Positions 2 to 46,957 of a DNA stretch of 48,743 bases are shown in pieces (the stretch's first letter is position 1; the number at the start of each line of letters is the position of its first letter). The notes under the pieces were generated by a model. The model saw nothing but the letters and a program-made list of their open reading frames with translations. It was not told the origin of the DNA and ran no database searches. The stretch is taken from the NCBI GenBank assembly GCA_001661245.1, contig KV454018.1, positions 693,569 to 742,311 on the forward strand, in the 5' to 3' direction. The stretch comes from Pachysolen tannophilus NRRL Y-2460 (lineage: Eukaryota). A program made the position numbers and the translations under genes.

Positions 2-1030
2 AAAATTTATTTGAAATGTTTTTCAAAAATTTTCACGAGAAAGTATTCTCCGTTGCCACGGTATGATCCTACTGTACCACAACCTTCAAATAGAAGACAA
101 CGAACAAGAAATAGAGTTTTACGAGATGATAATTTATCTGGGAGTATTGATAGCTATACGCACTCGCCACGTTATGATTACCCCTCTGAGTTTTATCCGC
201 CGAATCCACGGGGTACGATTTCTCATTCGGATCCAATTGCTGAACTTTTATCACAACCTACATTAGTTATTGAAAGACAATTGGAATTGATGAATGTTTT
301 CTTGGGGTTTGAACAGGCAAACAAATACCTGATTATGGATACAAGCGGTGCACAGTTGGGGTATCTGATGGAGAGAGATATTTCGTTTGTGAAGATGTTT
401 ATGAGACAAGTTTATCGATTACATAGACCTTTCACTGTTGATGTCTTTGATATAAAGGGAAACTTGTTATTAACTATAAGAAGGCCTTTTAGTTTTATAA
501 ATTCACACATCAAGTCGATTTTACCTGGAATTAGAAATGAGGAAACCGGTAATGAATTGATTGTTGGAGAATCGATTCAAAGTTGGCATTTATGGAGAAG
601 AAGGTATAATTTATTCAAGACAGAATTGAGTGCTAGCTCCATTGACTCCACAAATGAGGTAACTGGTAATATCTCTAATACCAGTGATCCAGCAGTGAAA
701 GAGGATATCGCATTTGAACAATTTGGGTATATAGACGCACCTTTCTTATCGTTTGAATTCCCAGTGAAAAATGAAAATGGAGAGATTATAGGTTCCGTTG
801 ATAGAAATTGGGTAGGAATAGGAAGAGAATTATTTACAGACACAGGTGTCTACATCATGAGAATGGACCCTTCAAGTTTTCAAGGCATGGAAGGAGTATA
901 CTCAAACATTGCAGGGCCAATGACTTTGGATCAAAGAGCTATAATGTTGGGTACAGCTATAAGTATCGATTTTGACTACTTCTCAAGGCACAGTAGCGGC
1001 AATGGTGGACTCATAGACTACGCAGACTAA
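2..1030 (+). CDS. AIM25: Phospholipid scramblase-family mitochondrial protein (Aim25), 5'-partial
   Basis: Scramblase motifs LVIERQLELMNVFLGFEQAN, YRLHRPF, WHLWRRRYNLF, RNWVGIGRELFTDTGVY and IDFDYFSRHS. The frame is open to the window edge and the ORF-track start is a TTG, so the true ATG is probably upstream. Confidence 0.9.
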   Translation, partial: KIYLKCFSKIFTRKYSPLPRYDPTVPQPSNRRQRTRNRVLRDDNLSGSIDSYTHSPRYDYPSEFYPPNPRGTISHSDPIAELLSQPTLVIERQLELMNVFLGFEQANKYLIMDTSGAQLGYLMERDISFVKMFMRQVYRLHRPFTVDVFDIKGNLLLTIRRPFSFINSHIKSILPGIRNEETGNELIVGESIQSWHLWRRRYNLFKTELSASSIDSTNEVTGNISNTSDPAVKEDIAFEQFGYIDAPFLSFEFPVKNENGEIIGSVDRNWVGIGRELFTDTGVYIMRMDPSSFQGMEGVYSNIAGPMTLDQRAIMLGTAISIDFDYFSRHSSGNGGLIDYAD

Positions 1031-1110
1031 ACCCTAAATACACCTTATATATATTCAAATAAAATTAACCTATTTATTTCCTTTTTTTTGCATGATTCTC
1101 ATTATAGTTT

Positions 1111-1140
1111 GTAAACATAGTAAACATAGTAAACATAGTA
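1111..1140 (+). repeat. 9-bp tandem repeat (GTAAACATA)x3
   Basis: Exact copies at 1111, 1120 and 1129 plus a partial copy. Each contains the forkhead-type core GTAAACA. Confidence 0.85.
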
Positions 1141-1146
1141 AAAGAT

Positions 1147-1210
1147 CCACCTCACACCATTCCACACCATTCCACACCACTTGCACCATCTACACCTCTC
1201 ACACCACCAC
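1147..1210 (+). repeat. Degenerate C/A-rich ~10-bp repeat (CACACCATTC-like)
   Basis: ctcacaccat tccacaccat tccacaccac ttgcaccatc tacacctctc acaccaccac, lying between AIM25 and PRE7. Confidence 0.7.
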
Positions 1211-1385: not shown

Positions 1386-2135
1386 ATGAGTGCTTCATCT
1401 TTTGCTGAGGGTAAACTGACGATTGCTTCTGAGTATTCGTCTGAGGTTCGTCGTGAACCTATTGAACATCAATTTAATCCTTATTCAGATAATGGAGGAA
1501 CTATATTAGGTATTGCAGGAAAAGATTTTGCTGTATTAGCTGGGGACACAAGACATACAACTGGGTATTCTATAAACTCTAGATATGAGCCAAAGGTGTT
1601 TGATGCTGGAGATGGGTTTCTTATAAGTGCCAATGGGTTTTCAGCTGATGGTAATGCTTTAGTAAAAAGATTTCAAAATCAATTAAAATGGTATCATTTT
1701 AATCATGGTAAAAAAATGGGTATAAGATCTGGAGCAAGATTTATTCAGCATTTGCTTTATGGTAAGAGGTTTTTCCCTTATTATGTTCATACAATTATTG
1801 CTGGTTTAGATGAAGAAGGTAAAGGTGCAGTATTTTCGTTTGATCCTATTGGTTCATATGAAAGAGAACAGTGTAGGGCAGGTGGTTCTGCAGCATCATT
1901 GATCATGCCTTTCTTGGATAACCAAGTAAATTTCAAAAATCAATTGGACCCGGAGTCCAATGGTACGAAAAAGAAAGAATTGAGATATCTTTCTTTAGAA
2001 GAAGTATTAAAACTTGTTAAAGATTCATTTAGTTCTGCTACTGAAAGACATATTCTTGTTGGTGATGGATTAGAGATCATGATTGTTACTAAGGAAGGAG
2101 TAAGAACAGAATATTATCCATTGAAAAAAGATTAA
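1386..2135 (+). CDS. PRE7: 20S proteasome subunit beta 6
   Basis: TIASEYSS...PIEHQFNPYSDNGGTILGIAG, LLYGKRFFPYYVH, YEREQCRAGG, ATERHILVGDGL and C-terminal YPLKKD. Confidence 0.97.
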   Translation: MSASSFAEGKLTIASEYSSEVRREPIEHQFNPYSDNGGTILGIAGKDFAVLAGDTRHTTGYSINSRYEPKVFDAGDGFLISANGFSADGNALVKRFQNQLKWYHFNHGKKMGIRSGARFIQHLLYGKRFFPYYVHTIIAGLDEEGKGAVFSFDPIGSYEREQCRAGGSAASLIMPFLDNQVNFKNQLDPESNGTKKKELRYLSLEEVLKLVKDSFSSATERHILVGDGLEIMIVTKEGVRTEYYPLKKD

Positions 2136-6990: not shown

Positions 6991-8250
6991 ATGATGTTAA
7001 GAAATCAATTACAGAGACAGTTTAGAACAAATTTTTTGTTGAGTAGGAATTCGAAATTAACTTTTTCTACAAGTTCTTATTATTTGAGTAATAATAACTC
7101 ACCTTTAAAAGTATTTGTTGATACTTTTAGGAAAGAATGGGGGAAATCTCAAGAATTAAAAGATAATATTAAAGCTTTACAAGATGAAACTGGTAGAATG
7201 GCTGAAAGTGAAGCTTTTCATAAGGCAAAAGAAGCTTATGATAGGGCTCAAAAATCTAGAAGTGTTGCTTCACAAGGTTTGAAAAAAACTGCAGAAGTTG
7301 TTGGAGATGCTGCTGTTAAAGCATGGGAATCACCTGTAGGTAAAGCAACAAGATCTACTGTTAAGATTACTGCTGAAGTAATTGATAAATCGATTGATCC
7401 TCTTAGAAATACAGCTGTTTATAAGGAAGTTTCAAAAGTTATTGATGATGGTTCTTCATCGAGGTATGGTGGGTTTTTAACTAAAGAAGAAAGACAACGT
7501 AAAAGAGAAGAATTAATTAAAAGTGGTAAAAGGGCAAAAATTATTAAATCTGATGAAGATGCTGGTACTGCATTAATTGCTACAAAACATAAACCAACAG
7601 GTCCAAGTTGGACTGATAAAATTACTTTCTTAAGACCAAACACTTTTTTAGGGAAATTATTGGCTGAATTAAGATTTAGATATGAAGAAACTGATAATAG
7701 ATTAATTTCAACTATAAGAACTATTATTGAAAAAATTGGTGGTTTTTTTGCAGAAACTGAAAATGGTAGAGTTATAAGAGCTTTTAAAGATATCGATCCT
7801 TCTTTTAATATAGAAGATTTTAATACCCAATTAAGAGATTATATTGTTCCTGAAGTATTAGATGCTTATGTTCAAGGAGATGAATTAATCTTGAAAAAAT
7901 GGTTTTCAGAAGCTCCATTTAACGTGGTACAACTGCAACAAAAGGCAATGAAAGATCAAGGCCTTTTTTCAGACGGAAAAATCTTGGATATTAGAGGTGT
8001 AGATATTGTTAGTGCTAAAATTTTACCTCCAAGTAATATCCCAGTATTAGTAATTGGTTGTAGAGCTCAAGAAATACAACTTTTCAGAGATTTTAAAACT
8101 GGAGAAATTAAAGCAGGAACAGAAGAGAATATCATGTTGAGCAGTTACGCAATGGTCATCACTAGAATCCCTGAAGATGTTGATAACCCTGACACAGAAG
8201 GATGGAAAATCTTGGAATTTGTTAGAGGTGGATCAAGACAATTTACATGA
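6991..8250 (+). CDS. TIM44: Mitochondrial import motor subunit Tim44
   Basis: Presequence-like N-terminus; SRYGGF, KKWFSEAPFNV, ILDIRGVDIVSAK and GWKILEFVRGGSRQFT. Confidence 0.96.
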   Translation: MMLRNQLQRQFRTNFLLSRNSKLTFSTSSYYLSNNNSPLKVFVDTFRKEWGKSQELKDNIKALQDETGRMAESEAFHKAKEAYDRAQKSRSVASQGLKKTAEVVGDAAVKAWESPVGKATRSTVKITAEVIDKSIDPLRNTAVYKEVSKVIDDGSSSRYGGFLTKEERQRKREELIKSGKRAKIIKSDEDAGTALIATKHKPTGPSWTDKITFLRPNTFLGKLLAELRFRYEETDNRLISTIRTIIEKIGGFFAETENGRVIRAFKDIDPSFNIEDFNTQLRDYIVPEVLDAYVQGDELILKKWFSEAPFNVVQLQQKAMKDQGLFSDGKILDIRGVDIVSAKILPPSNIPVLVIGCRAQEIQLFRDFKTGEIKAGTEENIMLSSYAMVITRIPEDVDNPDTEGWKILEFVRGGSRQFT

Positions 8251-14598: not shown

Positions 14599-16056
14599 AT
14601 GGTGGGTAATCATCATCAGCAGCAACAGCATCAGCAGCATCAGCAGGAGCAGCATCAGCACGTTTATAATCATAGTAGCCAGAATAGTGTGGTGGCGGGT
14701 TCGAATAATCAGATGTCAAAAGTGGTGACGGCCGTGGTGAGTAATTTACCGCCGTTTTCAATGAGAGTGATAGCTTTATGTGGTGTATGGTATTTTGTAT
14801 CATCCACCACTTCACAATTGACAAAAGAAGTGCTTGATAATTTCCCTTATCCATCATTTGTTGGAGAGTTTCAATTTTTCATATCTTCGGTTTATTGTAT
14901 AATATTATCCTTTATCTTTCAAAGTTTCCCCAATTGGATTCAATTTTTCCCTAAAGGTACTGTACCAGTTAATGGTAAACTAGTAATAAATAGAATCATA
15001 CTTCGAACTACAATACCTTTAGGTATATTTCAATTTTTGGGGAAATTTTCATCATTAGCTTCAACTTCAAGAGTTCCAATTTCAACAGTTTCAAGTATAA
15101 AATCATTATCTCCAATGTTAATCGTATTAGGTTATAGGTTTTATTATAAAGTTAAATTCCCAATTTTAACTTATGTATCATTGGCTCCATTAGTTGTAGG
15201 CGTTGTGTTAATAGTATTAAGTGATAATCAAAAATTTGAAGATTTTAAAAAAACAGCAGATTTAATTAATAATAAAGATCATTTACATGGAATTTTTTTT
15301 GCAATTTTAAGTACTTTTATCTTTGCTACTCAAAATATATATGCAAAAAATGTTGTTACTTATAATAGTAAGACAACTATTTCAAATAATTTGATTGTTA
15401 CAAATAAAACTGATCCTGCAAAATTAGCATTGAGTAATAGTAATAGTTCAAGTACAACAGATTTAGTCAATAATATAGAAGAATCGAAATATAGATTACC
15501 AATAACTGAAAATAGATTTGAAGAAAAAAATGAAGAATTAATGATGATGAATAATCAACATATTAAGAATAATAATTCATTTTATTACAAACAAGGAGAT
15601 GAAAAAACTAGTGGTGCAAAGAGTGGTAACTTATTAGCAACAACTAAACCGGATAAAATAACTATCTTGTGGTATTGTTCAACACTTGGTTTTTTGTTCC
15701 AATTACCCTTTTTCCTATTAACAGAATTCCCAAGAATTTTTTTTAGTACCACCATAAACACTACAACTGGAGCCATTGAACAAGGTACAATGGTTGACAT
15801 TCCTTTATTTAAACTTATTTTAAACGGGTCTTCACATTTCATACAGCTGCTATTGGCATTCCATCTCTTGGGAACAGTACCAACTGTCACTTACTCCATC
15901 GCCAGCATGATGAAAAGAATCATAATAATAACTGTTAGTATGATACTTGCAGGTCACAGCTTAAATTCAATGCAAATCTCTGGCCTAATATTAATTGGAA
16001 TAGGTTTATACAGCTACGATAGGTGGGCCGGCTCAAACAAGTTTGGCAAAAGATAA
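14599..16056 (+). CDS. SLY41: Triose-phosphate/nucleotide-sugar transporter family (SLC35E-like), Sly41-like
   Basis: Multi-pass protein with VSSIKSLSP, QNIYAKN, KPDKITIL and TVTYSIASMMKRI; N-terminal poly-Q/H tract. Confidence 0.82.
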   Translation: MVGNHHQQQQHQQHQQEQHQHVYNHSSQNSVVAGSNNQMSKVVTAVVSNLPPFSMRVIALCGVWYFVSSTTSQLTKEVLDNFPYPSFVGEFQFFISSVYCIILSFIFQSFPNWIQFFPKGTVPVNGKLVINRIILRTTIPLGIFQFLGKFSSLASTSRVPISTVSSIKSLSPMLIVLGYRFYYKVKFPILTYVSLAPLVVGVVLIVLSDNQKFEDFKKTADLINNKDHLHGIFFAILSTFIFATQNIYAKNVVTYNSKTTISNNLIVTNKTDPAKLALSNSNSSSTTDLVNNIEESKYRLPITENRFEEKNEELMMMNNQHIKNNNSFYYKQGDEKTSGAKSGNLLATTKPDKITILWYCSTLGFLFQLPFFLLTEFPRIFFSTTINTTTGAIEQGTMVDIPLFKLILNGSSHFIQLLLAFHLLGTVPTVTYSIASMMKRIIIITVSMILAGHSLNSMQISGLILIGIGLYSYDRWAGSNKFGKR

Positions 16057-25449: not shown

Positions 25450-28400
25450 TTAGCTCTTTGAGCTAGAGCTTTCTTCAAGATATCCACCTTGCTTACACAA
25501 GTTATGAAAAATGCTGTCCTTATTGGCTAATAAGTTAGCTGGTGTGTCAAACTCTGCAACACGGCCTTTTTCCAAAACTATCACTCTGTCGCTATCCAAG
25601 ACCGTTTCCAATCTATGTGCAATGGTTAATATTGTTTTATCTTTGAATTCACTTCTAATAGTTTGTTGAAGAATCTTATCTGTTTGCACATCAACAGCGG
25701 CTGTAGCTTCATCCAATATTAATAATTTGGAAGGGTTCAATAATGCTCTTGCAAGACACATCAATTGTCTTTGTCCTACAGACAAGTTACCACCACCCTC
25801 TGAAACTTTAACATCTAAGGCAGATTCTAAGACTTCATAATCCTTTTCGATGCTATCTTGTGCCATTGATAAAACATGGTCTTTTAAATGTGATAGTTCC
25901 AAAACTCTCCATAGTTCTTCTTCTGGATATTGACCAAATGGGTCGAGGTTTTGTCTAATAGTACCTTCTAGTGCCTGAGAATCCTGAGGAATAATACTTA
26001 ACTTATGTCTTAAATCATATAAACCAATCTCGCTAATATCGATGTCATCAATTTCAATATTTCCCTCTGTAGCTTCAATCAATCTGAAAATGGCCATTGT
26101 TAAAGTTGATTTACCAGCTCCTGTTCTACCTACAATACCAATTTTTTCTTTTGATTTAATATCCAAGTTGATATCATTTAAAACAGGATCCAAATTGGCT
26201 CTGTATTTAGTGGAATAATGATTGAATTTAACTCTTCCTTGAGATGGCCAGAAAGGTGGTGGTCTGTGACCTTCGACAATTGGTAGGGCTTCAGACTTCA
26301 ACTTTGAGTACTCCAATACTCTTTCGACACAAACGATATTGGATTCAACGTCAACTATACTTTTAACAAGCCAATTCAAAGAATCTGTGATTTGTAAAGC
26401 ATAACTCATGACTAAACCGACCAGCCCTGAAGATAAAGGTTTATTTGTTCCAATAGTAAGAAGAGAAAGAACAGAAGCCGCAAAAATAACTATAGAACCA
26501 ATTAATTGTAACCTTGAAGCTAACCATCTATTGGTAGTTCTGAATGTGTAGGTTGCTCTCATATTAATGTCAATATTAGCACTATTCATAAAGTTAAATC
26601 TTTCTACTTGTCTGTAAGCCCTAATCGTGTCGCAACCATTTAAACTCTCTTGAAGATGAGCAAAAATGGGACTAAGTGTTATACTAGCTATTCTTTTTAA
26701 TTGTCTTGAAGTTTCAAGATAATATTTCTGATAGTATAAATAACATATCGACAAGAAAATCATAATGATAATGAATATTGGCATAGAATAAATGATAACA
26801 AGACCCATGAACAAGGTTCTTACCGAAGCACCAAAAACACCTGAAAACATTCTAGGAAGCATTTCATCAATTTTGTTGATATCATTTGAGAATCTATTCA
26901 TAATTCTTCCAATTGGTGTGGTTTCAAAGAATGACATTGGCGACCTCATTACTGCTCTAGCCATATTATCATGCAATATTTTAGAAGCTCTGATGCAACA
27001 CAATAACCACAAGACTAATGCTCTAATGAAAAGTGTGAAGTCTGATGACATACCCAAGAGGGCATAAATACCAACAAATTTGAAAACATTATCGTTAAAC
27101 CCATTTGCAACATTACTCTCAGACCAGATTTTTAACCAAAAACTACTAGCAACAGATAATGAGGTTGTTAGAAAAGTTAAGAAGATAAGCAAGTTTACAC
27201 CAAAGTATCCACATGATTTTGCATACGACATATATACTGACCATTGAACTTTTCCCTTTTGCATTTTTTCAACCTCTTGTGCTGATCTTCTACTTTGATT
27301 GGTGTTACTTTCCAGCGGGTTTCTTTGATACGAATCCATACTTGCTCTTCTTAAAGATTGATGACTAAGAGTGACAGTTAAAGGTATCTCTTCAAGCAGA
27401 ATTGGAACTGAACTACCACTGCGATCATATTCAGGACCATTATATAGCTCTATCTCCTTCACAACGTCTTCGAATTCATCGTCTTCTTTTTTCAAGTTTT
27501 CATCATCTGCTTCTCCTGTTGCATCTTGTACCGTAGTGGTGGCAGATAATTTCGTCTCGCTATCAGATTCTACGACTTCGTTTAATGTTTCTTCTAAATC
27601 ATGATCTTGTGAATCATCCCGAGAAAAATCAGTGATCAATGTGTACAATGCAGATTTATTGCTCATAACTTGATCGTATGATCCACTCTCAACTATCTTT
27701 CCATCTGATAACAGTACAATACTTTTAGCATGTTTTAAGACAGAAATAGAATTAGTAGCTAATATGATAGTCTTTGATGAAAGTAATCCAGTTCCGCTAA
27801 ATAGTTGATCAACAATGTTTTGTCCGACATGAGCATCTACAGCAGATAACACATCATCTAAAAGATATACATCAGCTCTTGCGTAAACGGTTCGAGCTAA
27901 AGAAATTCTGGCCTTTTGCCCTCCACTCAATGAAATACCTTTCTCGCCAACTATTGTGGCATCACCATCAGGTAGAGTCTTTAAATCATCAAGTAACTGA
28001 CAACTTTCAATAGTCCTTTGGTAAAAATCTGGTTCATACTTGGTACCAAACAATATATTTGCTTTAACAGAGGCATTCATGACCCATGGGACTTGTGAAC
28101 AGTATGCTACAGACCCCAGAACTTTAACTTCCACTGGTCTCGTATTATTAGCTGGAACATATACTAATTTTCCCAATAAAGCCTGAATAAAAGAGGACTT
28201 ACCACTCCCAACTTTTCCAACAATACAAGATAGTTCGCCTTTTCTGGCAGTGAAATTTATACCCGTCAACGCAGCTTTAGGTGATGATAACTCACTTTCA
28301 TCATTATCATAATAATAGCCATGTCCATCTACAAAAGGTTTTGACCATAGAAAAGTTGCGTTTGAAACTTTAACAGAAACTTCACCCAAATGATGGACTT

Positions 28401-31093: not shown

Positions 31094-34000
31094 CTAAATG
31101 TCAGTTGTACTTGTAGTAGAGACGTTTTGGACTTTATCGGTGTTACCGTGCTTGAGGTAGCCTCCCTGGTTACACAAGCTGTAAAAAATGCTATCTTTAT
31201 TGGCTAATAGGTTTGTTGGTGTATCGAACTCTGCAACATGTCCTTTTTCCAAAACTACTACTCTGTCGCTATCCAAGACGGTTTCCAATCTATGTGCAAT
31301 GGTTAATATTGTTTTATCTTTGAATTCACTTCTAATAGTTTGTTGAAGAATCTTGTCTGTTTGTACATCAACAGCAGCGGTAGCTTCATCCAATATTAAT
31401 ACTTTGGAAGGGTTCAATAATGCTCTTGCAAGACACATCAATTGTCTTTGTCCTACGGACAAGTTACCACCACCTTCGGAGATTTTAACTTCCAAAGCTG
31501 AATCCAATATTTCTTCGCCTTTCCCCTTGCTTTCCTCAGCCATTGATAAGACATGGGTTTTCAAATGTGATAGTTCTAAAACTCTCCATAATTCTTCATC
31601 AGAATGTTGTCCAAGTGGATCCAAGTTTTGTCTCATGGTGCCTTCTATGGCTTGAGAATCTTGAGGAATAATACTCAACTTATGTCTCAAGTCATAAAGG
31701 CCAATCTCACTTGTGTTGATGTTATCAATTTCAATATGACCTTCTGTGGCTTCAATTAATCTGAAAATAGCCATTGCTAAAGTCGATTTACCAGCACCTG
31801 TTCTTCCTACAATACCAATTTTTTCGCTCGGTTGAATATCCAAATTGATATCATTTAAAACAGGATCCAAATTGGCTCTGTATTTAGTGGAATAATGATC
31901 AAATTTAACGCGTCCTTCAGATGGCCAGTATGCTGGTGGCCTATGATTCTCAATAATTTCTGAAGCTTCAGATTTTAATTTGGAGTATTCCAAAATTCTT
32001 TCGACACAAACAATATTGGATTCAACATCAACAGTACTTCTAACAACCCAATTCAAAGAGTCTGTAACTTGCAAAGCATAACTCATTAGTAAACCAACCA
32101 TACCTGAAGTTAAAGGAGTAGACGTTGTAAGTGTATAAAGAGCTAACAAAGATGCGGAAAAAATAATCAATGATCCAATAAATTGTAATCTAGCAGCTAA
32201 CCATCTATTGGAAGATCGAAGAGTATGCATAGCTCTCATATTAAAATCAATATTGGCGCTATTCAAGAAATTAAATCTGTCTTCTTGTCTATATGCTCTT
32301 ATGGTATCAGATCCGTTTAAACTTTCTTGAAGATGTGCAAAAATAGGACTCACTGTGATACTAGATATCCTCTTTAATTGTCTTGAAGTTGCAACATAAA
32401 ACCTTTGGTAATAAATGTACCATAATGACAAAGCAACCATAACAAGAAGGAAAACAGGCATTGAATAAGCAATGACACCAACTGTGAAAATGGTTCTGAC
32501 ACATGATCCAAAGAAACCTGAAAAAGTTCTAGGTAACATTTCGTCTACTTTATTAACATCATTTGAAAATCTGTTCATAATCCGACCAATTGGAGTTGTT
32601 TCAAAAAAAGACATAGGAGCTCTTAAAACAGACTTTGCCATGTTATCATGAAGTAACCTCGAACCCCTTATAGAACATAAAAAGAACATGACAGCTGTTC
32701 TCAGAAGAATACAAATATCAGAAGCAATACCTAATCCAGCATATATGGCAACAAACATAAGGACAGACTTGTTGGACCCACTCATGGCATTCTTCTCTGC
32801 CCAGTATTTCAACCAATAATTATCTGCCACAGATAATGCAGTCGTCAAGACAATCAAGGTTAAAAATAAACACACACCAAAATAACCACAGGATTTTGCA
32901 TAAGTAACATAAATAGACCATTGAACTTTTCCCTTTTCAGCTTTTTCAGCTTCTTGAGCAGTTCTTTTATTAGAAGTTTCATTCAAATCAATCAATGGCT
33001 TTTTCTTATATGAAGCCATACTTGATCTTCTCAATGATTGATGAGTTATTGTAGTAGTCAATGCTAATCCTTCTGAGTCAAGCTGATTAGTTCCAACTTC
33101 TGCCGTTTCAAACAGCATGAGATTTTCAGATTTATCATCGTCTATATCGATTATCAGGTCAGTTGAATCTGATTCCGCCATTTCTGTAGGACTCTCTTCT
33201 TCTGAGTGTAGTTCTTTGGCTTCTTGACGACCAAACTCGTCAATTAAAGCATATAATGCAGATTTCTTACTCATCACCAGTTTATACGAACCTCTTTCAA
33301 TTATTTCCCCACCGGACAACAAAACAATATTTTTGGAATGCTTCAAAACAGAAACTGAGTTTGTAGCTAATATAATCGTTTTTGTAGCCAATAGACCAGT
33401 TTCACTTAAGACTTGATCGACAATATTTTTTCCTACATGCAGGTCAACGGCAGATAATATATCATCTAATAAATATACATCTGCTCTAGCGTAAACAGCA
33501 CGAGCTAAACTAACTCTTGCCTTTTGACCTCCACTCAATGAAATCCCCTTTTCTCCAACTAAAGTATCATCACCATCTGGCAAAATATCTATATCATCCA
33601 ACAACTGGCAGCTCTCTATTGTCCTCTGATAAAAATCTTCATCAAACTTGCTACCGCACAAAATGTTATCCTTAAGAGATGCATTCATAATCCACGCCAC
33701 TTGAGAGCAATATGCAACAGAACCATGTATTTCAGTAACCATAGGTTCTGTAGGCACTGCTGGAATAGCCACTAATTCGCCTAATAATGCTTTTATAAAT
33801 GATGACTTACCAGCACCTACTCTTCCAACAATACAGGTTAATTGTCCTTTCCGTGCAGTGAAATTCACATCCTTCAAAGCAACTTTAGGTGTTGAAATTT
33901 CGTTTTCTTCATCGTAATTCTTCTTATCTGTTTTAGGTCTCGACCAAAGAAATGTAATATTTGATATTTTCACTGAAACGTCACCTAAATGATTAACTTT

Positions 34001-35890
34001 CGGTAATTCTTTAAAAACTTCAGGATTAAGCTCATCACATAGTAAGAAAGAGGTTATTCTACCTAAAGCAACTCCTGTCTCTATCAAAGAAGTAACAACG
34101 GCTGGAATAGCAAAGAACGGTTCAGAAAGTAAATTGAACAAAGATAAAGCGGGGAAAACAATATCAGGAGTCAATGGAGTATTTGAAATAAAGGCAAATA
34201 CTGAAAAAATAGAACATGAAATGAAAAATGGAATAGAAGACCATACAAATTGAACGGTAGCAGAAAGCATTCCAATTTTTTTCAAATTTTTCAACTCTTT
34301 ATTGTTTCTAATATCTTCCAATTTCAGTAACATAGGTTTTTCCCAACTGTACAACTTGATACTTTTAATGGAAGTCAATATCTCATTCATAGTTTTCGTT
34401 CTCATATCCTTATATTTCATCTGCTGCTTGTGGAGTCCTCTTAAAGTTTTAATCATTACAACATTAACGGGGACAATTAGTAAAACAATAATAGCAGCAC
34501 TAAATACAGACTTCCCTAATAATGAGTACAATGAAATTAAACATAAAACTAATTGTGTTGGTGCAGAAACTAAAATCTGAAGCTGGAAAAACATTTCTTG
34601 AACTCTCCCAACATCAACAGACATTAAATTAACAATATCACCTGTACTTCTCTCCTGTTTTGACTCTGCAGACAAGTGTAATGCTTTTTGATAAACTAAT
34701 GACATCAATCCTGATTTTGCTCTTATTCCAGATTCAAAGATTAACATAAGGTACTGGTTGAAAAATGCAGTCTGTAAAATTGATACAGCAAACATAGCAA
34801 GGGAAACACCAAAACCAATGATCAAAGGTTGATCATTATCTTTAACGAAAAATGAAATCAAAATTCTTAAAAACTGAGGTTGAACAACACTTAAAAATGA
34901 ATTTGAAACATCCAATGTTATAGAAAAAATTACTATAAGGAAAACAGACTTAAATAAAGCCCATGCCAAAGAAGGTTTTTCCGGGTTTTTATCTAATTGA
35001 TGTTTCCAATTTTTGAGTAAAATTTCAGAAGAATCTTTTGTAAATTGAACACCTGTTGGAATTGGTATATCATCTTCGGTAATACCTTCTTCAGTAACAC
35101 CTTTGGCCATAAATTCATTTAAATTAGAAAAAGTAATCAATGAAATAATGTTTGGAACTTTTAGTTTCAATCCATTTTCCTTATAGTATTCAATTAATTC
35201 TTCAGTTGGAGACCAATTCAAAAATTCCAAGACAAAAATTGAAATAGAATTGAATAAAAGCAAATATTCAACCCCACTAATCACTGTTGAATCCCCTAAA
35301 ATTTTATGCTTTGAGAAAACTTGCTGAATAACAACCGCCAAATTACAAAAAATGTGGAATGGCCAGAATAATAATAAACTAGCGCTTTGAACTACGCTGG
35401 TAGTAACTTCTATAGCATGTAATGGTAAGAATATTAGCAAAATTACCAACGCAGTAAGCCCAAACCCTGCAACTTTGACATCTGTTAACTTCAGCCCTTC
35501 TTCACTCTGGAGATTTTCAAAAACTACAATCAAATATAATATACTTTGTAATAAAACTGAATTTAACCTAATCCAATGATAAATACCGCAACTTTTCAAT
35601 TGACTCAAATTACCAAATTTTTGCCTGGAACTAAGTGATTGAAGTAACTGAAATCCAGCAAAAACTCCAAAGACAACCGAGATAATTGCATATATCAAAG
35701 AAACAAAACATGGATTAAGAGCATTGCTTGTCCTTGAAACCAAAGGATACCATGAACCACAAGAATTATTTAAACCAGTGACACCATACAGCTCAGAACT
35801 TGAAGAAAAAACAAAAGTATCATCCAATACCAGTAACAGTAATAGTTTCTGATACCCTGGATTATCTCCCATCAAAACTTCATCAACCAT
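31094..35890 (-). CDS. YCF1: Vacuolar ABCC/MRP transporter, Ycf1/Mlt1-like (copy 2, tandem paralogue)
   Basis: Same architecture and motifs as copy 1, colinear throughout, including the N-terminal NNSCGSWYPLVS. Confidence 0.88.
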   Translation of the reverse strand: MVDEVLMGDNPGYQKLLLLLVLDDTFVFSSSSELYGVTGLNNSCGSWYPLVSRTSNALNPCFVSLIYAIISVVFGVFAGFQLLQSLSSRQKFGNLSQLKSCGIYHWIRLNSVLLQSILYLIVVFENLQSEEGLKLTDVKVAGFGLTALVILLIFLPLHAIEVTTSVVQSASLLLFWPFHIFCNLAVVIQQVFSKHKILGDSTVISGVEYLLLFNSISIFVLEFLNWSPTEELIEYYKENGLKLKVPNIISLITFSNLNEFMAKGVTEEGITEDDIPIPTGVQFTKDSSEILLKNWKHQLDKNPEKPSLAWALFKSVFLIVIFSITLDVSNSFLSVVQPQFLRILISFFVKDNDQPLIIGFGVSLAMFAVSILQTAFFNQYLMLIFESGIRAKSGLMSLVYQKALHLSAESKQERSTGDIVNLMSVDVGRVQEMFFQLQILVSAPTQLVLCLISLYSLLGKSVFSAAIIVLLIVPVNVVMIKTLRGLHKQQMKYKDMRTKTMNEILTSIKSIKLYSWEKPMLLKLEDIRNNKELKNLKKIGMLSATVQFVWSSIPFFISCSIFSVFAFISNTPLTPDIVFPALSLFNLLSEPFFAIPAVVTSLIETGVALGRITSFLLCDELNPEVFKELPKVNHLGDVSVKISNITFLWSRPKTDKKNYDEENEISTPKVALKDVNFTARKGQLTCIVGRVGAGKSSFIKALLGELVAIPAVPTEPMVTEIHGSVAYCSQVAWIMNASLKDNILCGSKFDEDFYQRTIESCQLLDDIDILPDGDDTLVGEKGISLSGGQKARVSLARAVYARADVYLLDDILSAVDLHVGKNIVDQVLSETGLLATKTIILATNSVSVLKHSKNIVLLSGGEIIERGSYKLVMSKKSALYALIDEFGRQEAKELHSEEESPTEMAESDSTDLIIDIDDDKSENLMLFETAEVGTNQLDSEGLALTTTITHQSLRRSSMASYKKKPLIDLNETSNKRTAQEAEKAEKGKVQWSIYVTYAKSCGYFGVCLFLTLIVLTTALSVADNYWLKYWAEKNAMSGSNKSVLMFVAIYAGLGIASDICILLRTAVMFFLCSIRGSRLLHDNMAKSVLRAPMSFFETTPIGRIMNRFSNDVNKVDEMLPRTFSGFFGSCVRTIFTVGVIAYSMPVFLLVMVALSLWYIYYQRFYVATSRQLKRISSITVSPIFAHLQESLNGSDTIRAYRQEDRFNFLNSANIDFNMRAMHTLRSSNRWLAARLQFIGSLIIFSASLLALYTLTTSTPLTSGMVGLLMSYALQVTDSLNWVVRSTVDVESNIVCVERILEYSKLKSEASEIIENHRPPAYWPSEGRVKFDHYSTKYRANLDPVLNDINLDIQPSEKIGIVGRTGAGKSTLAMAIFRLIEATEGHIEIDNINTSEIGLYDLRHKLSIIPQDSQAIEGTMRQNLDPLGQHSDEELWRVLELSHLKTHVLSMAEESKGKGEEILDSALEVKISEGGGNLSVGQRQLMCLARALLNPSKVLILDEATAAVDVQTDKILQQTIRSEFKDKTILTIAHRLETVLDSDRVVVLEKGHVAEFDTPTNLLANKDSIFYSLCNQGGYLKHGNTDKVQNVSTTSTTDI

Positions 35891-40638: not shown

Positions 40639-42399
40639 TTACCAAGTTTCTTGGATATATCTGCCTTGGTTTTCCATTTCAAGTAGCATTTGGTTAGCTT
40701 TTTCGTTATCAACATCTTCATTACATTCTTCAAAAATAGTCGTAAAAGTAATTCTAACTTGATTGGGCATCTTACCTGAACTACCGCATAAATAAATAAT
40801 AGCATTTCTATTTGAAATTAAATCGTTAAGTAACAGTTTTTCTTTATACAAGATTTCTTGAACGTAACCTCCTTTACCTTCTCTAGAGAAGGAACTAAAT
40901 AATTTAGTTAATTTTCCCTCATGAAGTAGTGAATTCCATAATTCTCCATAAAGAAAATCTTTATCATGATATCTGTTACCTGTAAATAAATATAATTCAA
41001 TATTTGGGTTTGTTTGGATTTTGGTTTCAATTAATGATTTGATTGGCGCAATACCTGTTCCAGGAGCAATCATTATTAATGGAACATTTACAGATGGTTT
41101 CCCTATTTGTAAATTTTGTTCACGAATATGGAAAACCAAATTATCTCCCAGTTTCAATTTCTTTAACCATCTAGTACATATACCTCTTCTAATTTTTCTA
41201 AGCATTGTCTTATATTCTACAATGGCAACTGTAAGCTCAACGGTAGAATCATTTGGTTTTGAAGATATAGAGAATAATCTTGGTTTCAAGATGGGGAAAA
41301 TTTCCAAGATATAATCCACTGGGATTTTTAAAGAAAAAAATTCTAAAATGGTTTCTAAAATTGATCTTCTTGGTCTATTAGCATAATCATATAATTCTTG
41401 TGTTCCTTCAATCTTGGAAAATTCTAATAATTTTTCACGTTCTCTTTCATCTGATGCAAAATACCAAGCATTTAAGAAAAAACTTCTCTTTGGTATGGAT
41501 ACTATATCTAAATGATAAGTTATTAATGATCTTAAAGTTAATTTTTGTAATAATCCACCTTCAACTTTTGGTAAATCTCCTTGAATTGAAAGTGGGAAAT
41601 CAGCAATATTATCCCAACCTTGAGAATCTAACAAAGTTTGAACATCTCTTGGATCATTTGATGGGTATAATGCTACTGTATCTCCAGGTTTATAATGTAA
41701 TTGTAAATCCGAATTACTTTTGATTAAAACATTTCTAACATCTTGGAAATGATCATCACTTGTCATTCTTTCATTATGTAAGATCTGACCAGTTATTAAC
41801 GTATTATCTGAACGATTAAGTGAATCCTTGGTATCTATTAATTTTTTAAATTTTGTAGTATGAATTGTTAAAGAATTTCTTGCTGGTAATAATTCTGATA
41901 TTGGAATTTCTTTTAAATTTTCTGGTAAGGGAAATTTTTGATTTAAATTTGAAATTAATACTTTTTCCCATTCCATATAAAAACCTTCAATACCATCAGG
42001 CAGTTGTTCATCACTTTCAGCCCTATTACTAATTTCAATTGCTCCTAATTGTAATAATCTTCTATGAATTTTTTTTGCCGCATAATTAAATTGTGGATAA
42101 GAAGAATCTCCAAGACCAAATGTAGTAAAATATAAATGTTCCAATAAATCTAATGGAAGTTTTTTCCTTAACATAAATTTCCAAAAACTTCTTGCATTTC
42201 TTGGTAATTCTCCTTGACCTGTTGTTGAACATATTATAATTAAAATTTTAATATCTAATAATTTTTTTAAATCAAAATCATCCAAGCTACAAACAACTGT
42301 TTGAAACCTTAACCGCTCACATTTCCTGGCCAATAGATAAGCCAAATCTTGAGAATTCCCAGTCTCCGACCCATATAGTATCACTATTGATCTCGTCAT
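40639..42399 (-). CDS. TAH18: NADPH-dependent diflavin reductase (NDOR1)
   Basis: ILYGSETGNSQD, CSTTGQG, FGLGDSSY, HFQDVR, PRLFSISS, PGTGIAP and C-terminal GRYIQETW. ATG at 42399. Confidence 0.95.
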   Translation of the reverse strand: MTRSIVILYGSETGNSQDLAYLLARKCERLRFQTVVCSLDDFDLKKLLDIKILIIICSTTGQGELPRNARSFWKFMLRKKLPLDLLEHLYFTTFGLGDSSYPQFNYAAKKIHRRLLQLGAIEISNRAESDEQLPDGIEGFYMEWEKVLISNLNQKFPLPENLKEIPISELLPARNSLTIHTTKFKKLIDTKDSLNRSDNTLITGQILHNERMTSDDHFQDVRNVLIKSNSDLQLHYKPGDTVALYPSNDPRDVQTLLDSQGWDNIADFPLSIQGDLPKVEGGLLQKLTLRSLITYHLDIVSIPKRSFFLNAWYFASDEREREKLLEFSKIEGTQELYDYANRPRRSILETILEFFSLKIPVDYILEIFPILKPRLFSISSKPNDSTVELTVAIVEYKTMLRKIRRGICTRWLKKLKLGDNLVFHIREQNLQIGKPSVNVPLIMIAPGTGIAPIKSLIETKIQTNPNIELYLFTGNRYHDKDFLYGELWNSLLHEGKLTKLFSSFSREGKGGYVQEILYKEKLLLNDLISNRNAIIYLCGSSGKMPNQVRITFTTIFEECNEDVDNEKANQMLLEMENQGRYIQETW

Positions 42400-42959
42400 A
42401 GCCAAATAGCACTTGAGCTGTTTTTTCTTGCGGTATTATTGATGACTCTAAAGAAATTTTATCTTAACTTATTGTCTTTCAACTGAAAAAATGAAAAATG
42501 AAAAATGAAAAAAGAAAAGAGAGAGATCAAATAGATAGCAAACAGTTTTCAGTCTTGATGATGTATAAAAATGCCCTTCTTATTTTCTTATTTACGGGCA
42601 AAGAGAACATGAATCTGCCGTGTTGTTTCTGATAAAAAAGGTGGAAAATTTTTGTTAAGAAATTAGATCGAGAAACGAGCAAAAAAAGGTTAACTCAGTC
42701 AGTATCTTGTTCGTATAAATTTTATAAACGGGGTTTTGCTGCTGTCTTTCTGTTGCCGCCTAGTTTAGCGTGGACTTAGACCAAACTGGAGTTGGGCAGC
42801 TTTCTGGCGTTGGGCAGCTAGCTAACTTTTGGCCGGCCGGTGACTTTGGCCGGTGACTGGCGCCGTTAGGTGCTTACTTACAGTCTCATTCACACTATTT
42901 CTACGATTTCTTGCTGCCAAAAATAGATGCACAATTAGCAGCCGGTCTCTTAAATGATT

Positions 42960-43033
42960 GACTTCGTGGCCAAGTTGGTTAAGGCGTGTGACTGTTAATC
43001 ACAAGATCGCTGGTTCGACTCCAGCCGTTGTCG
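42960..43033 (+). tRNA. tRNA-Asn(GTT), intronless, 74 nt
   Basis: A box TGGCCAAGTTGG; anticodon arm TGTGA-CTGTTAA-TCACA (GTT at 42994-42996); T arm GCTGG-TTCGACT-CCAGC; discriminator G. Confidence 0.95.
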
Positions 43034-43034
43034 A

Positions 43035-44537: not shown

Positions 44538-44632
44538 GATTCAATTACACAAACACATAGAGACAAAAATTTTAAGAAAATTAATATTGTTTGTTTATTT
44601 TTATATATATCTATATACAAGAAATATCATTA

Positions 44633-45301
44633 TTATCTTTTACGACCAGTATATAATCTATATTCAGGTAATTTTGATTTCAATACATTACCGAAAACTT
44701 TTGTTGGATTTTGTTTTAAAGTTTCAAGATAATTTATTTGATTTCCAGTTTCCTTTATTGCTTTTAAACCAACTCTTAGAGCATCATTTTTTTTAACAAA
44801 TTCAAATACACCAGGAAGTTTTTCACCAGCTTTTCTAAAAGCTTCTCTTGCAACTTTTTCATGTAAAGTATTTGAACCTCCAATTTCAAATATAATTTTA
44901 CCAGTAGGTACCCTAACGGCCCAATAATCAAAAGCTCCTTTACCTTTACCCATACGTGTCTCATTACCTTTAGTACAAACAGCAACATTAGTACATAATC
45001 TCCTCCATATCTTTGCTCCAATAGGTCTCATCATCCTCAATATAACAGCATCCGCTTCTTTCAACTGATTTGCTGACATACGAACACCTTCGGATTTTAA
45101 CCTAATACCATATTCTCCAAACTCAATAGTTGAACCTTTAGTAGAACCACCAGTCCTTACAGGAACTCTACCTTTATGTCTCTTACCAACATGTTTAAAT
45201 CTAGGTGCCAACTCATGAGAAAATCGTTTCCCCAATGTACTAACAACTGATAAAACAGAAGTCTTTCTAACCGCCAGAAATCCAACTCTTGCTAAAAACA
45301 T
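44633..45301 (-). CDS. MRPL16: Mitochondrial ribosomal protein uL16m
   Basis: HELAPRFK...[15 protein letters not shown] and [17 protein letters not shown]. Confidence 0.96.
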
Positions 45302-45553
45302 CTTTCACTAAATTTCAAATTGATCTCTTCCTTTATTTCTTGTTGGTTGGATTTCATTTCAAAACCTTCTTTTTTTCCTTCAAAAATTTTTTTTTTCCAA
45401 TTTTTCAACTTCTTTTCGGTTACGCAGCACATAAAAAAAATCAAAGAAATTTTGAAGGAATTTTAAGAAAATAACGTTTGTTTTGAAAGGTATTATTGAA
45501 TTGGAGGAAAGTTGGGGTTTTTTTCTTTTCTTCTTAGTGGTTGTATTGATTTG

Positions 45554-46957
45554 ATGATGATGATGATTCGAGGTAGATGGAATGGATCTTGTGTTGTTAT
45601 GTTGCAATTGTTTAGAAGGTTTTCATCGGTGAAGGTTAATACTGGAGATGTTCCAAGTATTATTGTTAATAATAAGAGTTATAAACCTGATGAATGGACC
45701 AATGTTCCTAATTCGATTTTACAGTTGACTAATAGGAAGTTACATTTGGATGAGAATCATCCTATTGGGATATTGAGGAGTCTTATTGAAGATAGGTTTA
45801 AAGGATTAGGGTATACTTATTATAATGAATTTGAACCTGTGGTGAGTACATTTGAAAATTTTGATGTTTTAAATTTTCCAAAAGATCATCCAGGAAGGTC
45901 AAAATCTGATACTTATTATTTAAATAAAGATATGTTATTGAGAACACATACATCTGCACATGAATATCTGTGTTTTAAAAAATGTGAGACTCCTGGGTAT
46001 TTTATTAGTGCTGATGTTTATAGGAAAGATGAAATTGATAAAACACATTATCCTCTGTTTCATCAAATGGAAGGTGCTAGGATATGGGAAAGATCTAAAG
46101 ATTTCGAACAAAAAATTAAAGATGATATTAATGCCATCCCAAAGTTAGATATGATTGTAGAAGATGATTTCCCTTGTTTTGATCCTATAACAAATCCAAA
46201 ACAAGATTATATGACACCTAATGAAGTTGAATTAGTTAGTACACATTTGAAAAGAACAATTGAATTATTAATTTATCAAGTTTTCAGTGCTGCAAAGGAA
46301 AATGCCATTATTGAGAAAAAAATCAATGGGAAAATATCTGTTGATGAAGCTTTTTTGAATGAACCACTTCGAGTCAAATGGATTCCTGATTATTTCCCAT
46401 GGACAGCTCCAAGTTGGGAAATTGATGTTTGGTGGAAAGGTGAATGGTTAGAATGTTGTGGGTGTGGTCTTGTAAGACAAAAAATCCTAACAAATTCTGG
46501 AATCTCACCCAATACCGTCGGATGGGCATTTGGTGTTGGTCTAGATAGAATTGCAATGTTATTATTTGGTATCCCAGATATAAGATTATTTTGGACATTA
46601 GATGAACGTTTTAAATCTCAATTCATAAAGGGTAAAATCACAAGTTTCAAACCTTATTCCAAATACCCAGCCACTATAAGAGATGTGGCATTCTGGTTGC
46701 CACAAGATAATTTGAACTTAAATGAACCATTACATGAAAATGATTTAATGGAAATTGTTAGAGAAACTGCTGGTGATTTAGTAGAAAGTGTAAAATTAAT
46801 TGATGAATTTATTCACCCAAAGACAAACAGAAAATCCCAATGTTACAGAATACAATATCAGTCAATGGATAGAAACTTAACAAACGAAGAGATAAACATC
46901 TTACAGGAAACCGTAAGACTCAAACTACAACAGAAATATAACATCGAATTACGCTGA
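45554..46957 (+). CDS. MSF1: Mitochondrial phenylalanyl-tRNA synthetase
   Basis: HPGRSKSDTYY, LRTHTSAH, FHQMEG, YFPWTAPSWE, GWAFGVGLDR and a C-terminal anticodon-binding domain. The start is either 45554 or 45599 (MLQLFRRFSS). Confidence 0.95.
   Translation: MMMMIRGRWNGSCVVMLQLFRRFSSVKVNTGDVPSIIVNNKSYKPDEWTNVPNSILQLTNRKLHLDENHPIGILRSLIEDRFKGLGYTYYNEFEPVVSTFENFDVLNFPKDHPGRSKSDTYYLNKDMLLRTHTSAHEYLCFKKCETPGYFISADVYRKDEIDKTHYPLFHQMEGARIWERSKDFEQKIKDDINAIPKLDMIVEDDFPCFDPITNPKQDYMTPNEVELVSTHLKRTIELLIYQVFSAAKENAIIEKKINGKISVDEAFLNEPLRVKWIPDYFPWTAPSWEIDVWWKGEWLECCGCGLVRQKILTNSGISPNTVGWAFGVGLDRIAMLLFGIPDIRLFWTLDERFKSQFIKGKITSFKPYSKYPATIRDVAFWLPQDNLNLNEPLHENDLMEIVRETAGDLVESVKLIDEFIHPKTNRKSQCYRIQYQSMDRNLTNEEINILQETVRLKLQQKYNIELR

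What the first reader, a model, noticed from the sequence alone, without database searches (positions are those of the whole stretch)
329..46057. CUG appears to be decoded as alanine throughout the window (non-standard nuclear code)
Seen in sequence: CTG occupies AIM25 NKY[CTG]IMD (329-331), PRE7 K[CTG]TIASEY (1416-1418), TIM44 NVVQ[CTG]QQK (7933-7935), SLY41 HFIQ[CTG]LLAF (15847-15849), YCF1 copy 2 SAVD[CTG]HVG (33440-33442) and MSF1 HYP[CTG]FHQ (46055-46057). The YCF1 case has an internal control, because copy 1 reads SAVDAHVG at the same site. Recalled S. cerevisiae homologues read YAIMD, MATIASEY, VYAAQQK and FFQAMLAF. Established: CUG=Ala is described for Pachysolen tannophilus and relatives (table 26). 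Inference: the organism belongs to that clade, and every CTG-derived L in the ORF track should be A. One ambiguous site is MSS1 GEDL[CTG]ELH (23473), where Leu is common in homologues.
Basis: partly seen in the sequence, partly recalled or inferred. Interest (0 to 1): 0.75.

Follow-up and report, generated by a model that had tools for sequence, protein, structure and literature searches.

The report
Yeast window reads CUG as alanine
This stretch of budding-yeast DNA comes from a lineage that reads the codon CUG as alanine instead of leucine, a real but already described change of the genetic code.

Summary
All seven cited sites are in-frame CTG codons, and ORFs of 150 aa or more hold 67 CTG among 11,526 codons.

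Leucine is firmly rejected. At 146 columns that are at least 80% Leu in homologues, the window uses 139 Leu-box codons and 0 CTG (p=4e-4). In a Codetta-style test, CTG is the only one of 61 codons that departs from the standard code.

Alanine is the best reading. Pfam scores over 16 domain regions sum to Ala 1637.2, Ser 1630.2 and Leu 1622.2 bits. S. cerevisiae has Ala at the PRE7 and TIM44 sites. YCF1 copy 1 has GCT where copy 2 has CTG. The MSF1 column is Ala in 98 of 119 homologues.

The public translations of this locus carry Ala at all 10 CTG sites they cover. Trees place the window outside the Ser1, Ser2, Leu1 and Leu2 clades.

Ala over Ser is moderate on column statistics alone, about 7 bits. 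No tRNA(CAG) could be examined. CUG=Ala is established (table 26, order Alaninales), so this is already known.

The parts
2..46957 (.). Span holding the 21 ORFs of 150 aa or more. They carry 67 in-frame CTG codons, 0.58% of 11,526 codons. 16 of the 21 ORFs have at least one.
329..331 (+). CTG in the scramblase (AIM25-like) gene, NKY[CTG]IMD. A second CTG lies at 365-367.
   Evidence: Pfam Scramblase scores over both sites: Ala 120.7, Ser 118.9, Leu 118.5 bits.
1416..1418 (+). CTG at residue 11 of proteasome beta-6 (PRE7-like).
   Evidence: Aligns to Ala-2 of the S. cerevisiae chain, ATIASEY.
7933..7935 (+). CTG at residue 315 of TIM44.
   Evidence: Aligns to Ala in S. cerevisiae Tim44, NVYAAQQK. 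Pfam Tim44: Ala 123.9, Ser 123.2, Leu 121.1 bits.
15847..15849 (+). CTG at residue 417 of a TPT-family transporter (SLY41-like).
   Evidence: Pfam TPT: Ser 54.8, Ala 54.0, Leu 52.6 bits. No PDB homologue.
23473..23475 (+). CTG at residue 102 of MnmE/MSS1. This is a hydrophobic column.
   Evidence: Four bacterial MnmE structures read V, V, L, V. Pfam TrmE_N: Leu 133.9, Ala 133.5, Ser 132.2 bits.
33440..33442 (-). CTG at residue 817 of YCF1 copy 2, SAVD[CTG]HVG.
   Evidence: Column among 144 homologues: A 69, S 45, E 10, V 6, L 0. The paralogue has GCT here.
27832..27834 (-). GCT (Ala) at residue 816 of YCF1 copy 1, the internal control opposite the CTG of copy 2.
   Evidence: Coordinates were computed from the ORF end at 30279.
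46055..46057 (+). CTG at residue 168 of mitochondrial PheRS (MSF1-like), HYP[CTG]FHQ.
   Evidence: Column: A 98, V 11, G 8, L 1, I 1 of 119. The single L belongs to P0171, an unnamed close relative.
45968..45970 (+). CTG at residue 139 of MSF1, in a column that is Glu in 103 of 119 homologues. It fits neither Ala, Ser nor Leu.
42001..42003 (-). CTG at residue 133 of TAH18. The column has a Ser consensus (S 78, A 23, T 8), so this site favours Ser.
28726..28728 (-). CTG at residue 518 of YCF1 copy 1. Copy 2 has CTG at the same column (residue 522, 34325-34327). The column is variable (E/D/K).
25450..30279 (-). YCF1/MRP-type ABC transporter, copy 1 (9 CTG). Residues 62, 207 and 856 align to Leu codons (TTG, CTT, TTG) in copy 2, and residue 1286 aligns to ATG.
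31094..35890 (-). YCF1/MRP-type ABC transporter, copy 2 (10 CTG). It is 65.6% identical to copy 1.
42959..43034 (+). tRNA-Asn(GTT), the only tRNA in the window. It is not the CUG decoder.

Best explanation
The window is nuclear DNA of a budding yeast of the CUG-Ala lineage. That lineage is the order Alaninales (Pachysolen, Nakazawaea, Peterozyma), which uses NCBI table 26, so all 67 in-frame CTG codons should be read as alanine.

The mechanism is taken from published work on Pachysolen and was not tested here. The ancestral tRNA-Leu(CAG) was lost. A tRNA-Ala acquired the anticodon CAG while keeping the alanine identity marks G3:U70 and A73, so alanyl-tRNA synthetase charges it.

What the window itself shows:
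- CTG is absent from conserved Leu positions.
- CTG is the only codon whose aligned columns contradict the standard code.
- Ala is the best-fitting meaning.

One further point is inferred. Present-day CTG codons are evolutionarily young and arise mostly by single-base changes from TTG, CTN and ATG. That would explain why they sit at weakly conserved and often hydrophobic sites that tolerate Ala.
For: Against Leu:
- At 146 columns that are at least 80% Leu, the window has 139 Leu-box codons and 0 CTG. About 7.6 were expected from CTG's share of 67/1227 (p=4e-4). At 60% conservation or more it is 1 of 216 (p=7e-5).
- The Ala-minus-Leu log-likelihood of the CTG columns is +5.0. True Leu codon sets give a mean of -30.8 and a maximum of -9.8 in 20,000 resamples. 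With unweighted profiles, none of 10,000 resamples came above -34.9.

For Ala:
- With background-corrected log-odds, CTG is the only one of 61 codons that departs from the standard code.
- Unweighted profiles give Ala -13.2, Ser -20.9, Gln -27.2 and Leu -36.3 bits.
- Pfam scores over 16 domain regions translated by tables 1, 12 and 26 sum to Leu 1622.2, Ser 1630.2 and Ala 1637.2 bits.
- Pairwise matches: Ala in S. cerevisiae at the PRE7 and TIM44 sites, GCT in the YCF1 paralogue, and Ala in 98 of 119 homologues in the MSF1 column.

Independent lines:
- P0001, P0048 and P0168 are this window's own proteins as held in the public collection. They carry A at all 10 CTG sites they cover.
- P0171 is an unnamed relative, 70% identical and translated by the standard code. 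It has L at the same conserved-Ala column as the window's CTG, and L at a second column that is 90% Ala.
- In trees the window groups with P0170 and P0171 (SH-aLRT 94). It lies outside Ser1 (98-100), Ser2 (98-100), Leu1 (98-100) and Leu2 (91-99).
- CTG density is 67 in 21 ORFs, with 16 of 21 ORFs affected. Pachysolen has 16,824 CUG in 5,288 genes, with 80% of genes affected (PMC4937558, Results section read).

Literature:
- Mass spectrometry and the tRNA-Ala(CAG) in Pachysolen (PMC4937558).
- The Ala clade of three genera (PMC5951914, passages).
- The order Alaninales, diagnosed by CUG-Ala (PMC11182611, passages).
Against: - Ala over Ser rests on only about 7 bits. The Pfam test and my own profile test share 14 of their roughly 22 columns.
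- With HMMER's default entropy-weighted profiles, Ala (2.3 bits), Gln (2.2) and Ser (2.1) are not separable.
- CTG columns are not typical Ala columns either. No resample, or almost none, of true Ala codons scored as low.
- Between the YCF1 paralogues, 8 of 15 CTG sites face L, I or M. The figure for GCN Ala codons is 24 of 177 (p=7e-4).
- Ala is the compromise residue for any mix of polar and hydrophobic columns, so a mixed meaning would also score as Ala.
- Individual sites favour other readings. TAH18-133 has a Ser consensus, MSF1-139 is a conserved Glu, and ERD2, MSS1 and the second transmembrane domain of YCF1 copy 2 score best as Leu.
- Column analysis led the Pachysolen authors themselves to call Ser in 2014 (PMC4986446, passages).
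- Neither the tRNA nor any peptide was examined.
- No named Alaninales sequence anchors the trees.
Confidence: 0.93

Rival explanations
1. CUG is read as serine, as in the Candida (Ser1, table 12) or Ascoidea/Saccharomycopsis (Ser2) yeasts.
For: - Ser is the runner-up in every test.
- Ser is best in 5 of 15 informative Pfam regions.
- TAH18-133 is a Ser-consensus column (S 78, A 23).
- YCF1b-817 is Ser in 45 of 144 homologues.
- The entropy-weighted profile cannot separate Ser from Ala.
- Pachysolen was once mis-called Ser from the same kind of data (PMC4986446).
Against: - Ser scores 7.0 bits (Pfam) and 7.7 bits (own profiles) below Ala.
- None of 36 columns that are at least 80% Ser holds a CTG.
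- The MSF1-168 column has no Ser among 119 homologues.
- 8 of 15 CTG sites in the YCF1 paralogues face hydrophobic residues, against 17 of 316 for true Ser codons (p=1.5e-6).
- The Ser1 and Ser2 clades are recovered with 98-100 support and exclude the window.
- The public translation uses Ala.
Confidence: 0.04
2. CUG is decoded ambiguously, as Ala or Ser together with Leu. This would resemble the stochastic decoding in Ascoidea asiatica, so that only sites tolerating both residues keep CTG.
For: - CTG sites are a mix of weakly conserved polar and hydrophobic columns, unlike any single amino acid's codons.
- Their hydrophobic-partner fraction is intermediate between Ala and Leu codons (8/15 against 24/177 and 354/381).
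- The published mass spectrometry surveys do not exclude low-level incorporation of a second residue (PMC5951914 passage).
Against: - CTG occurs at positions where Leu is essentially never seen: MSF1-168 and YCF1b-817, both with 0 true L.
- In Pachysolen, 97.2% of the 907 fully supported CUG positions read Ala, with error levels like those of AUG (PMC4937558).
- The hydrophobic excess has a simpler explanation. 58% of CTG's one-step neighbour codons in these ORFs are Leu codons, 21% are ATG and 8% are GTG.
- The window is not in the Ascoidea clade.
Confidence: 0.02
3. CUG keeps its standard meaning, leucine. It is merely rare in an AT-rich genome and confined to unconstrained sites. The Ala matches are then chance.
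For: - The genome is 31% G+C and CTG is rare.
- 4 of 15 CTG sites face Leu codons in the paralogue.
- Three Pfam regions score best as Leu.
Against: - 0 of 139 Leu-box codons at conserved Leu columns are CTG (p=4e-4).
- The equally rare CTC (9 columns) and CTA (35 columns) are still inferred as Leu.
- Leu scores 15 bits (Pfam) and 15 to 23 bits (own profiles) below Ala.
- No resample of true Leu codons resembles CTG.
- Only 4 of 15 CTG sites face Leu in the paralogue, against 73% for true Leu codons.
Confidence: 0.01

Closest known systems
[quoted passage not shown] Source: Muhlhausen et al. 2016, PMC4937558 (abstract and Results read).
   Same: - CTG is absent from conserved Leu sites, and Ala is the best-fitting meaning.
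- CTG density per gene is similar (3.2), as is the share of genes affected (76% here, 80% in Pachysolen).
- The genome is an AT-rich yeast genome.
- The public translation of this locus uses Ala.
   Different: - Nothing shown here differs in kind.
- The tRNA and the proteome were not examined here.
- In this small sample, CTG sits more often at weakly conserved or hydrophobic sites than at the 'conserved alanine positions' that paper stresses.
Ala clade, order Alaninales (Pachysolen, Nakazawaea, Peterozyma). Sources: Krassowski et al. 2018, PMC5951914; Groenewald et al. 2023, PMC11182611 (passages read).
   Same: - The window forms a separate lineage outside the Ser1, Ser2, Leu1 and Leu2 clades.
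- It groups with unnamed relatives, one of which shows the Ala-clade signature (L at conserved Ala when translated by the standard code).
   Different: - The published sister relation to Pichiales (Leu2) was not recovered in my two-gene trees.
- No named Alaninales member was available as a reference.
CUG-Ser1 code of Candida and Debaryomycetaceae (table 12).
   Same: The same codon is reassigned. Old CUG codons were lost from conserved Leu sites and new ones arose elsewhere.
   Different: - The amino acid is Ser, carried by a tRNA-Ser(CAG).
- The window lies outside that clade.
- Ser scores about 7 bits below Ala here.
- No CTG sits at a strongly conserved Ser column.
Stochastic Ser/Leu decoding of CUG in Ascoidea asiatica. 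Source: PMC6041473 (search listing and abstract only).
   Same: CUG is rare and lies mostly at unconstrained sites.
   Different: - That case has two competing tRNAs and belongs to a different clade.
- In this window CTG also occupies sites where Leu is not tolerated.

Membership tests
CUG-Ala nuclear code (NCBI table 26, Alaninales) | CUG-encoded residues are alanine in the proteome (LC-MS/MS). | not testable with these tools
   No proteomic data are available here. Published for Pachysolen: 97.2% of 907 fully supported CUG positions read Ala (PMC4937558).
CUG-Ala nuclear code (NCBI table 26, Alaninales) | The genome has a tRNA(CAG) with alanine identity (G3:U70, A73, short variable arm) and no tRNA-Leu(CAG). 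| not testable with these tools
   No genome is held for this window. The only tRNA in the window is tRNA-Asn(GTT).
CUG-Ala nuclear code (NCBI table 26, Alaninales) | CTG is absent from conserved leucine columns. | tested here: met
   0 CTG among 139 Leu-box codons at columns at least 80% Leu (p=4e-4). 1 of 216 at columns at least 60% Leu (p=7e-5).
CUG-Ala nuclear code (NCBI table 26, Alaninales) | Columns aligned to CTG fit Ala better than any other residue (Codetta-type inference). | tested here: met
   - Pfam: Ala +7.0 bits over Ser and +15.0 over Leu. Only these three residues were tried there.
- Own unweighted profiles: Ala is best of 20 residues, with Ser 7.7 bits lower.
- Weak point: entropy-weighted profiles tie Ala, Gln and Ser.
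CUG-Ala nuclear code (NCBI table 26, Alaninales) | Phylogenetic placement within Alaninales. | tested here: inconclusive
   The window lies outside Ser1, Ser2, Leu1 and Leu2 and groups with unnamed P0170 and P0171 (SH-aLRT 94). No named Alaninales sequence was in the hit lists, and deeper nodes are unresolved.
CUG-Ala nuclear code (NCBI table 26, Alaninales) | Existing public translation of the same genes uses Ala at CTG. | tested here: met
   P0001, P0048 and P0168 carry A at 10 of 10 covered CTG sites.
CUG-Ser codes (table 12: Serinales, Ascoideales) | CTG lies at conserved serine columns, and the organism is placed inside a Ser clade. | tested here: not met
   - 0 CTG at 36 columns at least 80% Ser, and 1 at the 60% level.
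- The Ser1 and Ser2 clades exclude the window with 98-100 support.
Standard code (CUG=Leu) | CTG shares the column profile of the other Leu codons. | tested here: not met
   CTC and CTA, which are about as rare, are inferred as Leu.

The most novel reading that the evidence does not exclude
CUG may be read mainly as Ala but with a real minor Leu component, or may otherwise be under special constraint. The basis is that CTG sites face hydrophobic residues far more often than ordinary Ala codons do: 8 of 15 against 24 of 177 between the two YCF1 copies.

I prefer a milder version. Frequent TTG-to-CTG and CTN-to-CTG mutations keep feeding Leu-to-Ala replacements into the proteome of CUG-Ala yeasts. 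CTG-encoded alanines would then form a distinct, young and hydrophobic-site-biased class of residues.
Probability: 0.05. Interest if true: 0.6.

Novelty: already known. Interest (0 to 1): 0.2.

Why it matters
For annotation it matters a lot. Under the standard table, 16 of the 21 ORFs in this window would each get one to sixteen wrong residues (Leu for Ala).

Some public protein sets built with the standard code already carry this error for relatives. P0171 is an example, with L at conserved Ala columns.

As biology it is a correct rediscovery. The reassignment was shown by mass spectrometry and tRNA analysis in 2016. It has its own NCBI table (26) and is now the diagnostic character of an order, Alaninales.

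Tried and rejected
- **Whole genome for a tRNA(CAG) search.** None is held. ARAGORN with intron search and Rfam find only tRNA-Asn in the window.
- **Representative search with full-length YCF1.** It was rerun with residues 400-1598.
- **PDB searches.** AIM25 and SLY41 gave no hit. The three CTG of the MPD1-like protein fall outside the aligned stretches. Of the two ULP2 CTG in the stretch searched, only residue 469 was aligned.
- **Raw-emission likelihoods without background correction.** These mis-inferred ATG as L, TGT as A, TGC as V and CCG as E. I replaced them with log-odds, which get all 60 other codons right.
- **Entropy-weighted profiles.** They cannot separate Ala, Gln and Ser.
- **Resampling against true Ala and Ser codons.** CTG is atypical of both. 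So resampling rejects Leu but cannot by itself choose Ala.
- **The look-up of sequencing runs.** Five rows in two studies hold the stretch. Organism names are coded and no RNA holder is listed. Nothing was laid.
- **Earlier scan notes.** There are none for this genome. One word match concerns a phage tRNA in another genome and does not bear on this window.
- **Amino acids other than L, S and A** were not tried in the Pfam score test.
- **FRE family.** Homologues are only 23-39% identical, so its six aligned CTG columns carry little weight.
Full report
**Observation.** The window is 48,743 bp at 31.3% G+C. It holds 21 ORFs of at least 150 aa.
- The 21 ORFs contain 67 CTG among 11,526 codons (0.58%). 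The other Leu-box codons number 1,160 and GCN codons 525. 16 of the 21 ORFs have at least one CTG.

**Is CTG leucine?** No.
- I collected homologues for four families:
  - ferric reductase, 46 sequences;
  - TAH18, 119;
  - MSF1, 119;
  - YCF1, where 144 of the 150 representatives were kept after a length filter of 1,000-1,800 aa.
- At 146 columns where at least 80% of homologues have Leu, the window uses TTA 78, TTG 42, CTT 10, CTA 8 and CTC 1, and CTG 0. CTG makes up 67 of 1,227 CTN/TTR codons, so the binomial p is 4e-4. At 60% conservation or more, CTG is 1 of 216 (p=7e-5).
- I built profile HMMs from the homologues, leaving out the window's own proteins. I aligned the window proteins to them with X at each CTG, in the manner of Codetta.
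- The 20 confidently aligned CTG columns give ln L(Ala) minus ln L(Leu) of +5.0. Sets of 20 columns drawn from true Leu codons give a mean of -30.8 (sd 5.2) and never exceeded -9.8 in 20,000 draws.
- Unweighted profiles give the same answer, with a maximum of -34.9 in 10,000 draws.
- The comparably rare CTC (9 columns) and CTA (35 columns) are still inferred as Leu. Rarity alone therefore does not explain the result.

**Which amino acid?**
- With proper log-odds (emission divided by mean emission), all 60 other sense codons are inferred correctly. CTG is the single exception.
- Unweighted profiles rank Ala -13.2, Ser -20.9, Gln -27.2, Val -28.3 and Leu -36.3 bits.
- HMMER's default entropy-weighted profiles are too flat to decide: Ala 2.3, Gln 2.2 and Ser 2.1 bits, with Leu 14.7 bits lower.
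- As a second test I translated 16 domain regions under tables 1, 12 and 26 and scored them against Pfam. The totals are Leu 1622.2, Ser 1630.2 and Ala 1637.2 bits.
- Eight of the CTG columns in that test belong to six genes not used in my own profiles (AIM25, ERD2, TIM44, SLY41, MSS1, ULP2). On those alone, Ala leads Ser by 4.7 bits and Leu by 5.9.
- Among 15 informative regions, Ala is best in 6 and ties Ser for best in 1. Ser is best in 5 and Leu in 3.
- Pairwise checks:
  - S. cerevisiae has Ala at the PRE7 and TIM44 sites.
  - YCF1 copy 1 has GCT opposite the CTG of copy 2.
  - The MSF1 column reads A 98, V 11, G 8, L 1, I 1.
  - The YCF1b-817 column reads A 69, S 45, L 0.
- Sites against Ala:
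  - TAH18-133 has a Ser consensus (S 78, A 23).
  - MSF1-139 is Glu in 103 of 119 homologues.
  - Several sites are hydrophobic. MSS1 reads V, V, L, V in four bacterial structures. ERD2 aligns to V and L in the KDEL receptor. ULP2-469 aligns to I in yeast Ulp2.

**Caveats.**
- CTG columns resemble neither typical Ala nor typical Ser columns. They are mostly weakly conserved.
- Ala is the natural compromise residue for a mix of polar and hydrophobic columns.
- The 7-bit margin over Ser is moderate, and the two tests share 14 columns.
- The same kind of analysis led the discoverers of the Pachysolen code to call Ser in 2014, before tRNA and proteomic data corrected it to Ala (PMC4986446 passages; PMC4937558).

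**Independent lines.**
- Three proteins in the public collection are flagged as encoded by this window (P0001, P0048, P0168). They carry A at all 10 CTG sites they cover. Whoever translated them already used CUG=Ala.
- Where public sequences were translated by the standard code, CUG-Ser yeasts betray themselves by L at conserved Ser columns. Examples are P0300 with 5, P0201 with 4 and P0265 with 3.
- P0171 is one of the closest relatives of the window's MSF1 (70% identity). It instead has L at two conserved Ala columns, and one of these is the very column of the window's CTG at 46055.
- A concatenated TAH18+MSF1 tree and an MSF1 tree recover Ser1, Ser2, Leu1 and Leu2 as supported groups that exclude the window. 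The window joins the unnamed P0170 and P0171 lineage (SH-aLRT 85 and 94).
- The deeper placement is unresolved, and no named Alaninales sequence was among the hits. Clade membership is therefore consistent but not demonstrated.
- The window has 3.2 CTG per ORF with 76% of ORFs affected. Pachysolen has 16,824 CUG in 5,288 genes with 80% of genes affected.

**A pattern worth recording.**
- Between the two YCF1 copies (65.6% identical), the residue opposite a CTG is L four times (TTG three times, CTT once). It is I three times, M once and A once, with six polar residues. One further column is CTG in both copies.
- The partner is hydrophobic at 8 of 15 CTG sites. The figures are 24 of 177 for GCN codons, 17 of 316 for Ser codons and 354 of 381 for Leu codons. 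Fisher p values are 7e-4, 1.5e-6 and 7e-5.
- I explain this by mutational origin. In these ORFs, 58% of the codons one step from CTG are Leu codons, 21% are ATG and 8% are GTG. New CTG codons therefore arise mostly as Leu-to-Ala or Met-to-Ala replacements at tolerant sites. This step is inferred, not shown. Low-level dual decoding is the less likely alternative.

**Not tested.** No genome is held and the window has no tRNA(CAG). The decoder tRNA and its alanine identity marks could not be examined. No peptide data exist here either.

**Comparison and novelty.**
- CUG=Ala was shown for Pachysolen tannophilus by LC-MS/MS and by a tRNA-Ala(CAG) with G3:U70 and A73 (PMC4937558).
- It was extended to Nakazawaea and Peterozyma (PMC5951914, passages).
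- It is now the diagnostic character of the order Alaninales (PMC11182611, passages). The tools here know it as NCBI table 26.

**Verdict.** Its practical value is that this window, and public standard-code translations of its relatives, must be read with table 26.

Noticed in passing
window 25450-30279 and 31094-35890 (both on the - strand): Two tandem MRP/YCF1-type ABC transporter genes, 65.6% identical at protein level. They share one CTG codon at the same column (residues 518 and 522).
   Followed up: partly
P0171 (unnamed protein), columns 305 and 439 of the MSF1 alignment: A public protein predicted with the standard code has Leu at two conserved Ala columns. It is probably a CUG-Ala relative that was mistranslated. 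Several other unnamed hits (P0300, P0201, P0265, P0124) show Leu at conserved Ser columns, as expected for mistranslated CUG-Ser yeasts.
   Followed up: partly
window 2276-2734 (- strand): The ER-retention-receptor ORF matches only Pfam positions 36-143 and residues 63-211 of the KDEL receptor. Its first 60 or so residues must lie in an upstream exon, so an intron is likely.
   Followed up: no
window 1100-1200: The AIM25-PRE7 spacer holds short tandem repeats: GTAAACATA repeated three times, and several copies of CCACACCATT-like units.
   Followed up: no
window 4706-6990 and 46958-48743: Two stretches of about 2.3 kb and 1.8 kb have no ORF of 70 aa or more starting at ATG (apart from one low-complexity frame at the window's end) and no Rfam match.
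   Followed up: partly
window 42959-43034 (+ strand): tRNA-Asn(GTT) lies between the TAH18 and RFC-subunit genes. In several other yeasts TAH18 and MSF1 are near neighbours, judging from locus tags and shared contig lengths, so local synteny seems conserved.
   Followed up: no
window 45968-45970 (+ strand): A CTG sits at a column that is Glu in 103 of 119 mitochondrial PheRS homologues (HEY[CTG]CF). Read as Ala, this is an unusual replacement at a conserved acidic site.
   Followed up: no
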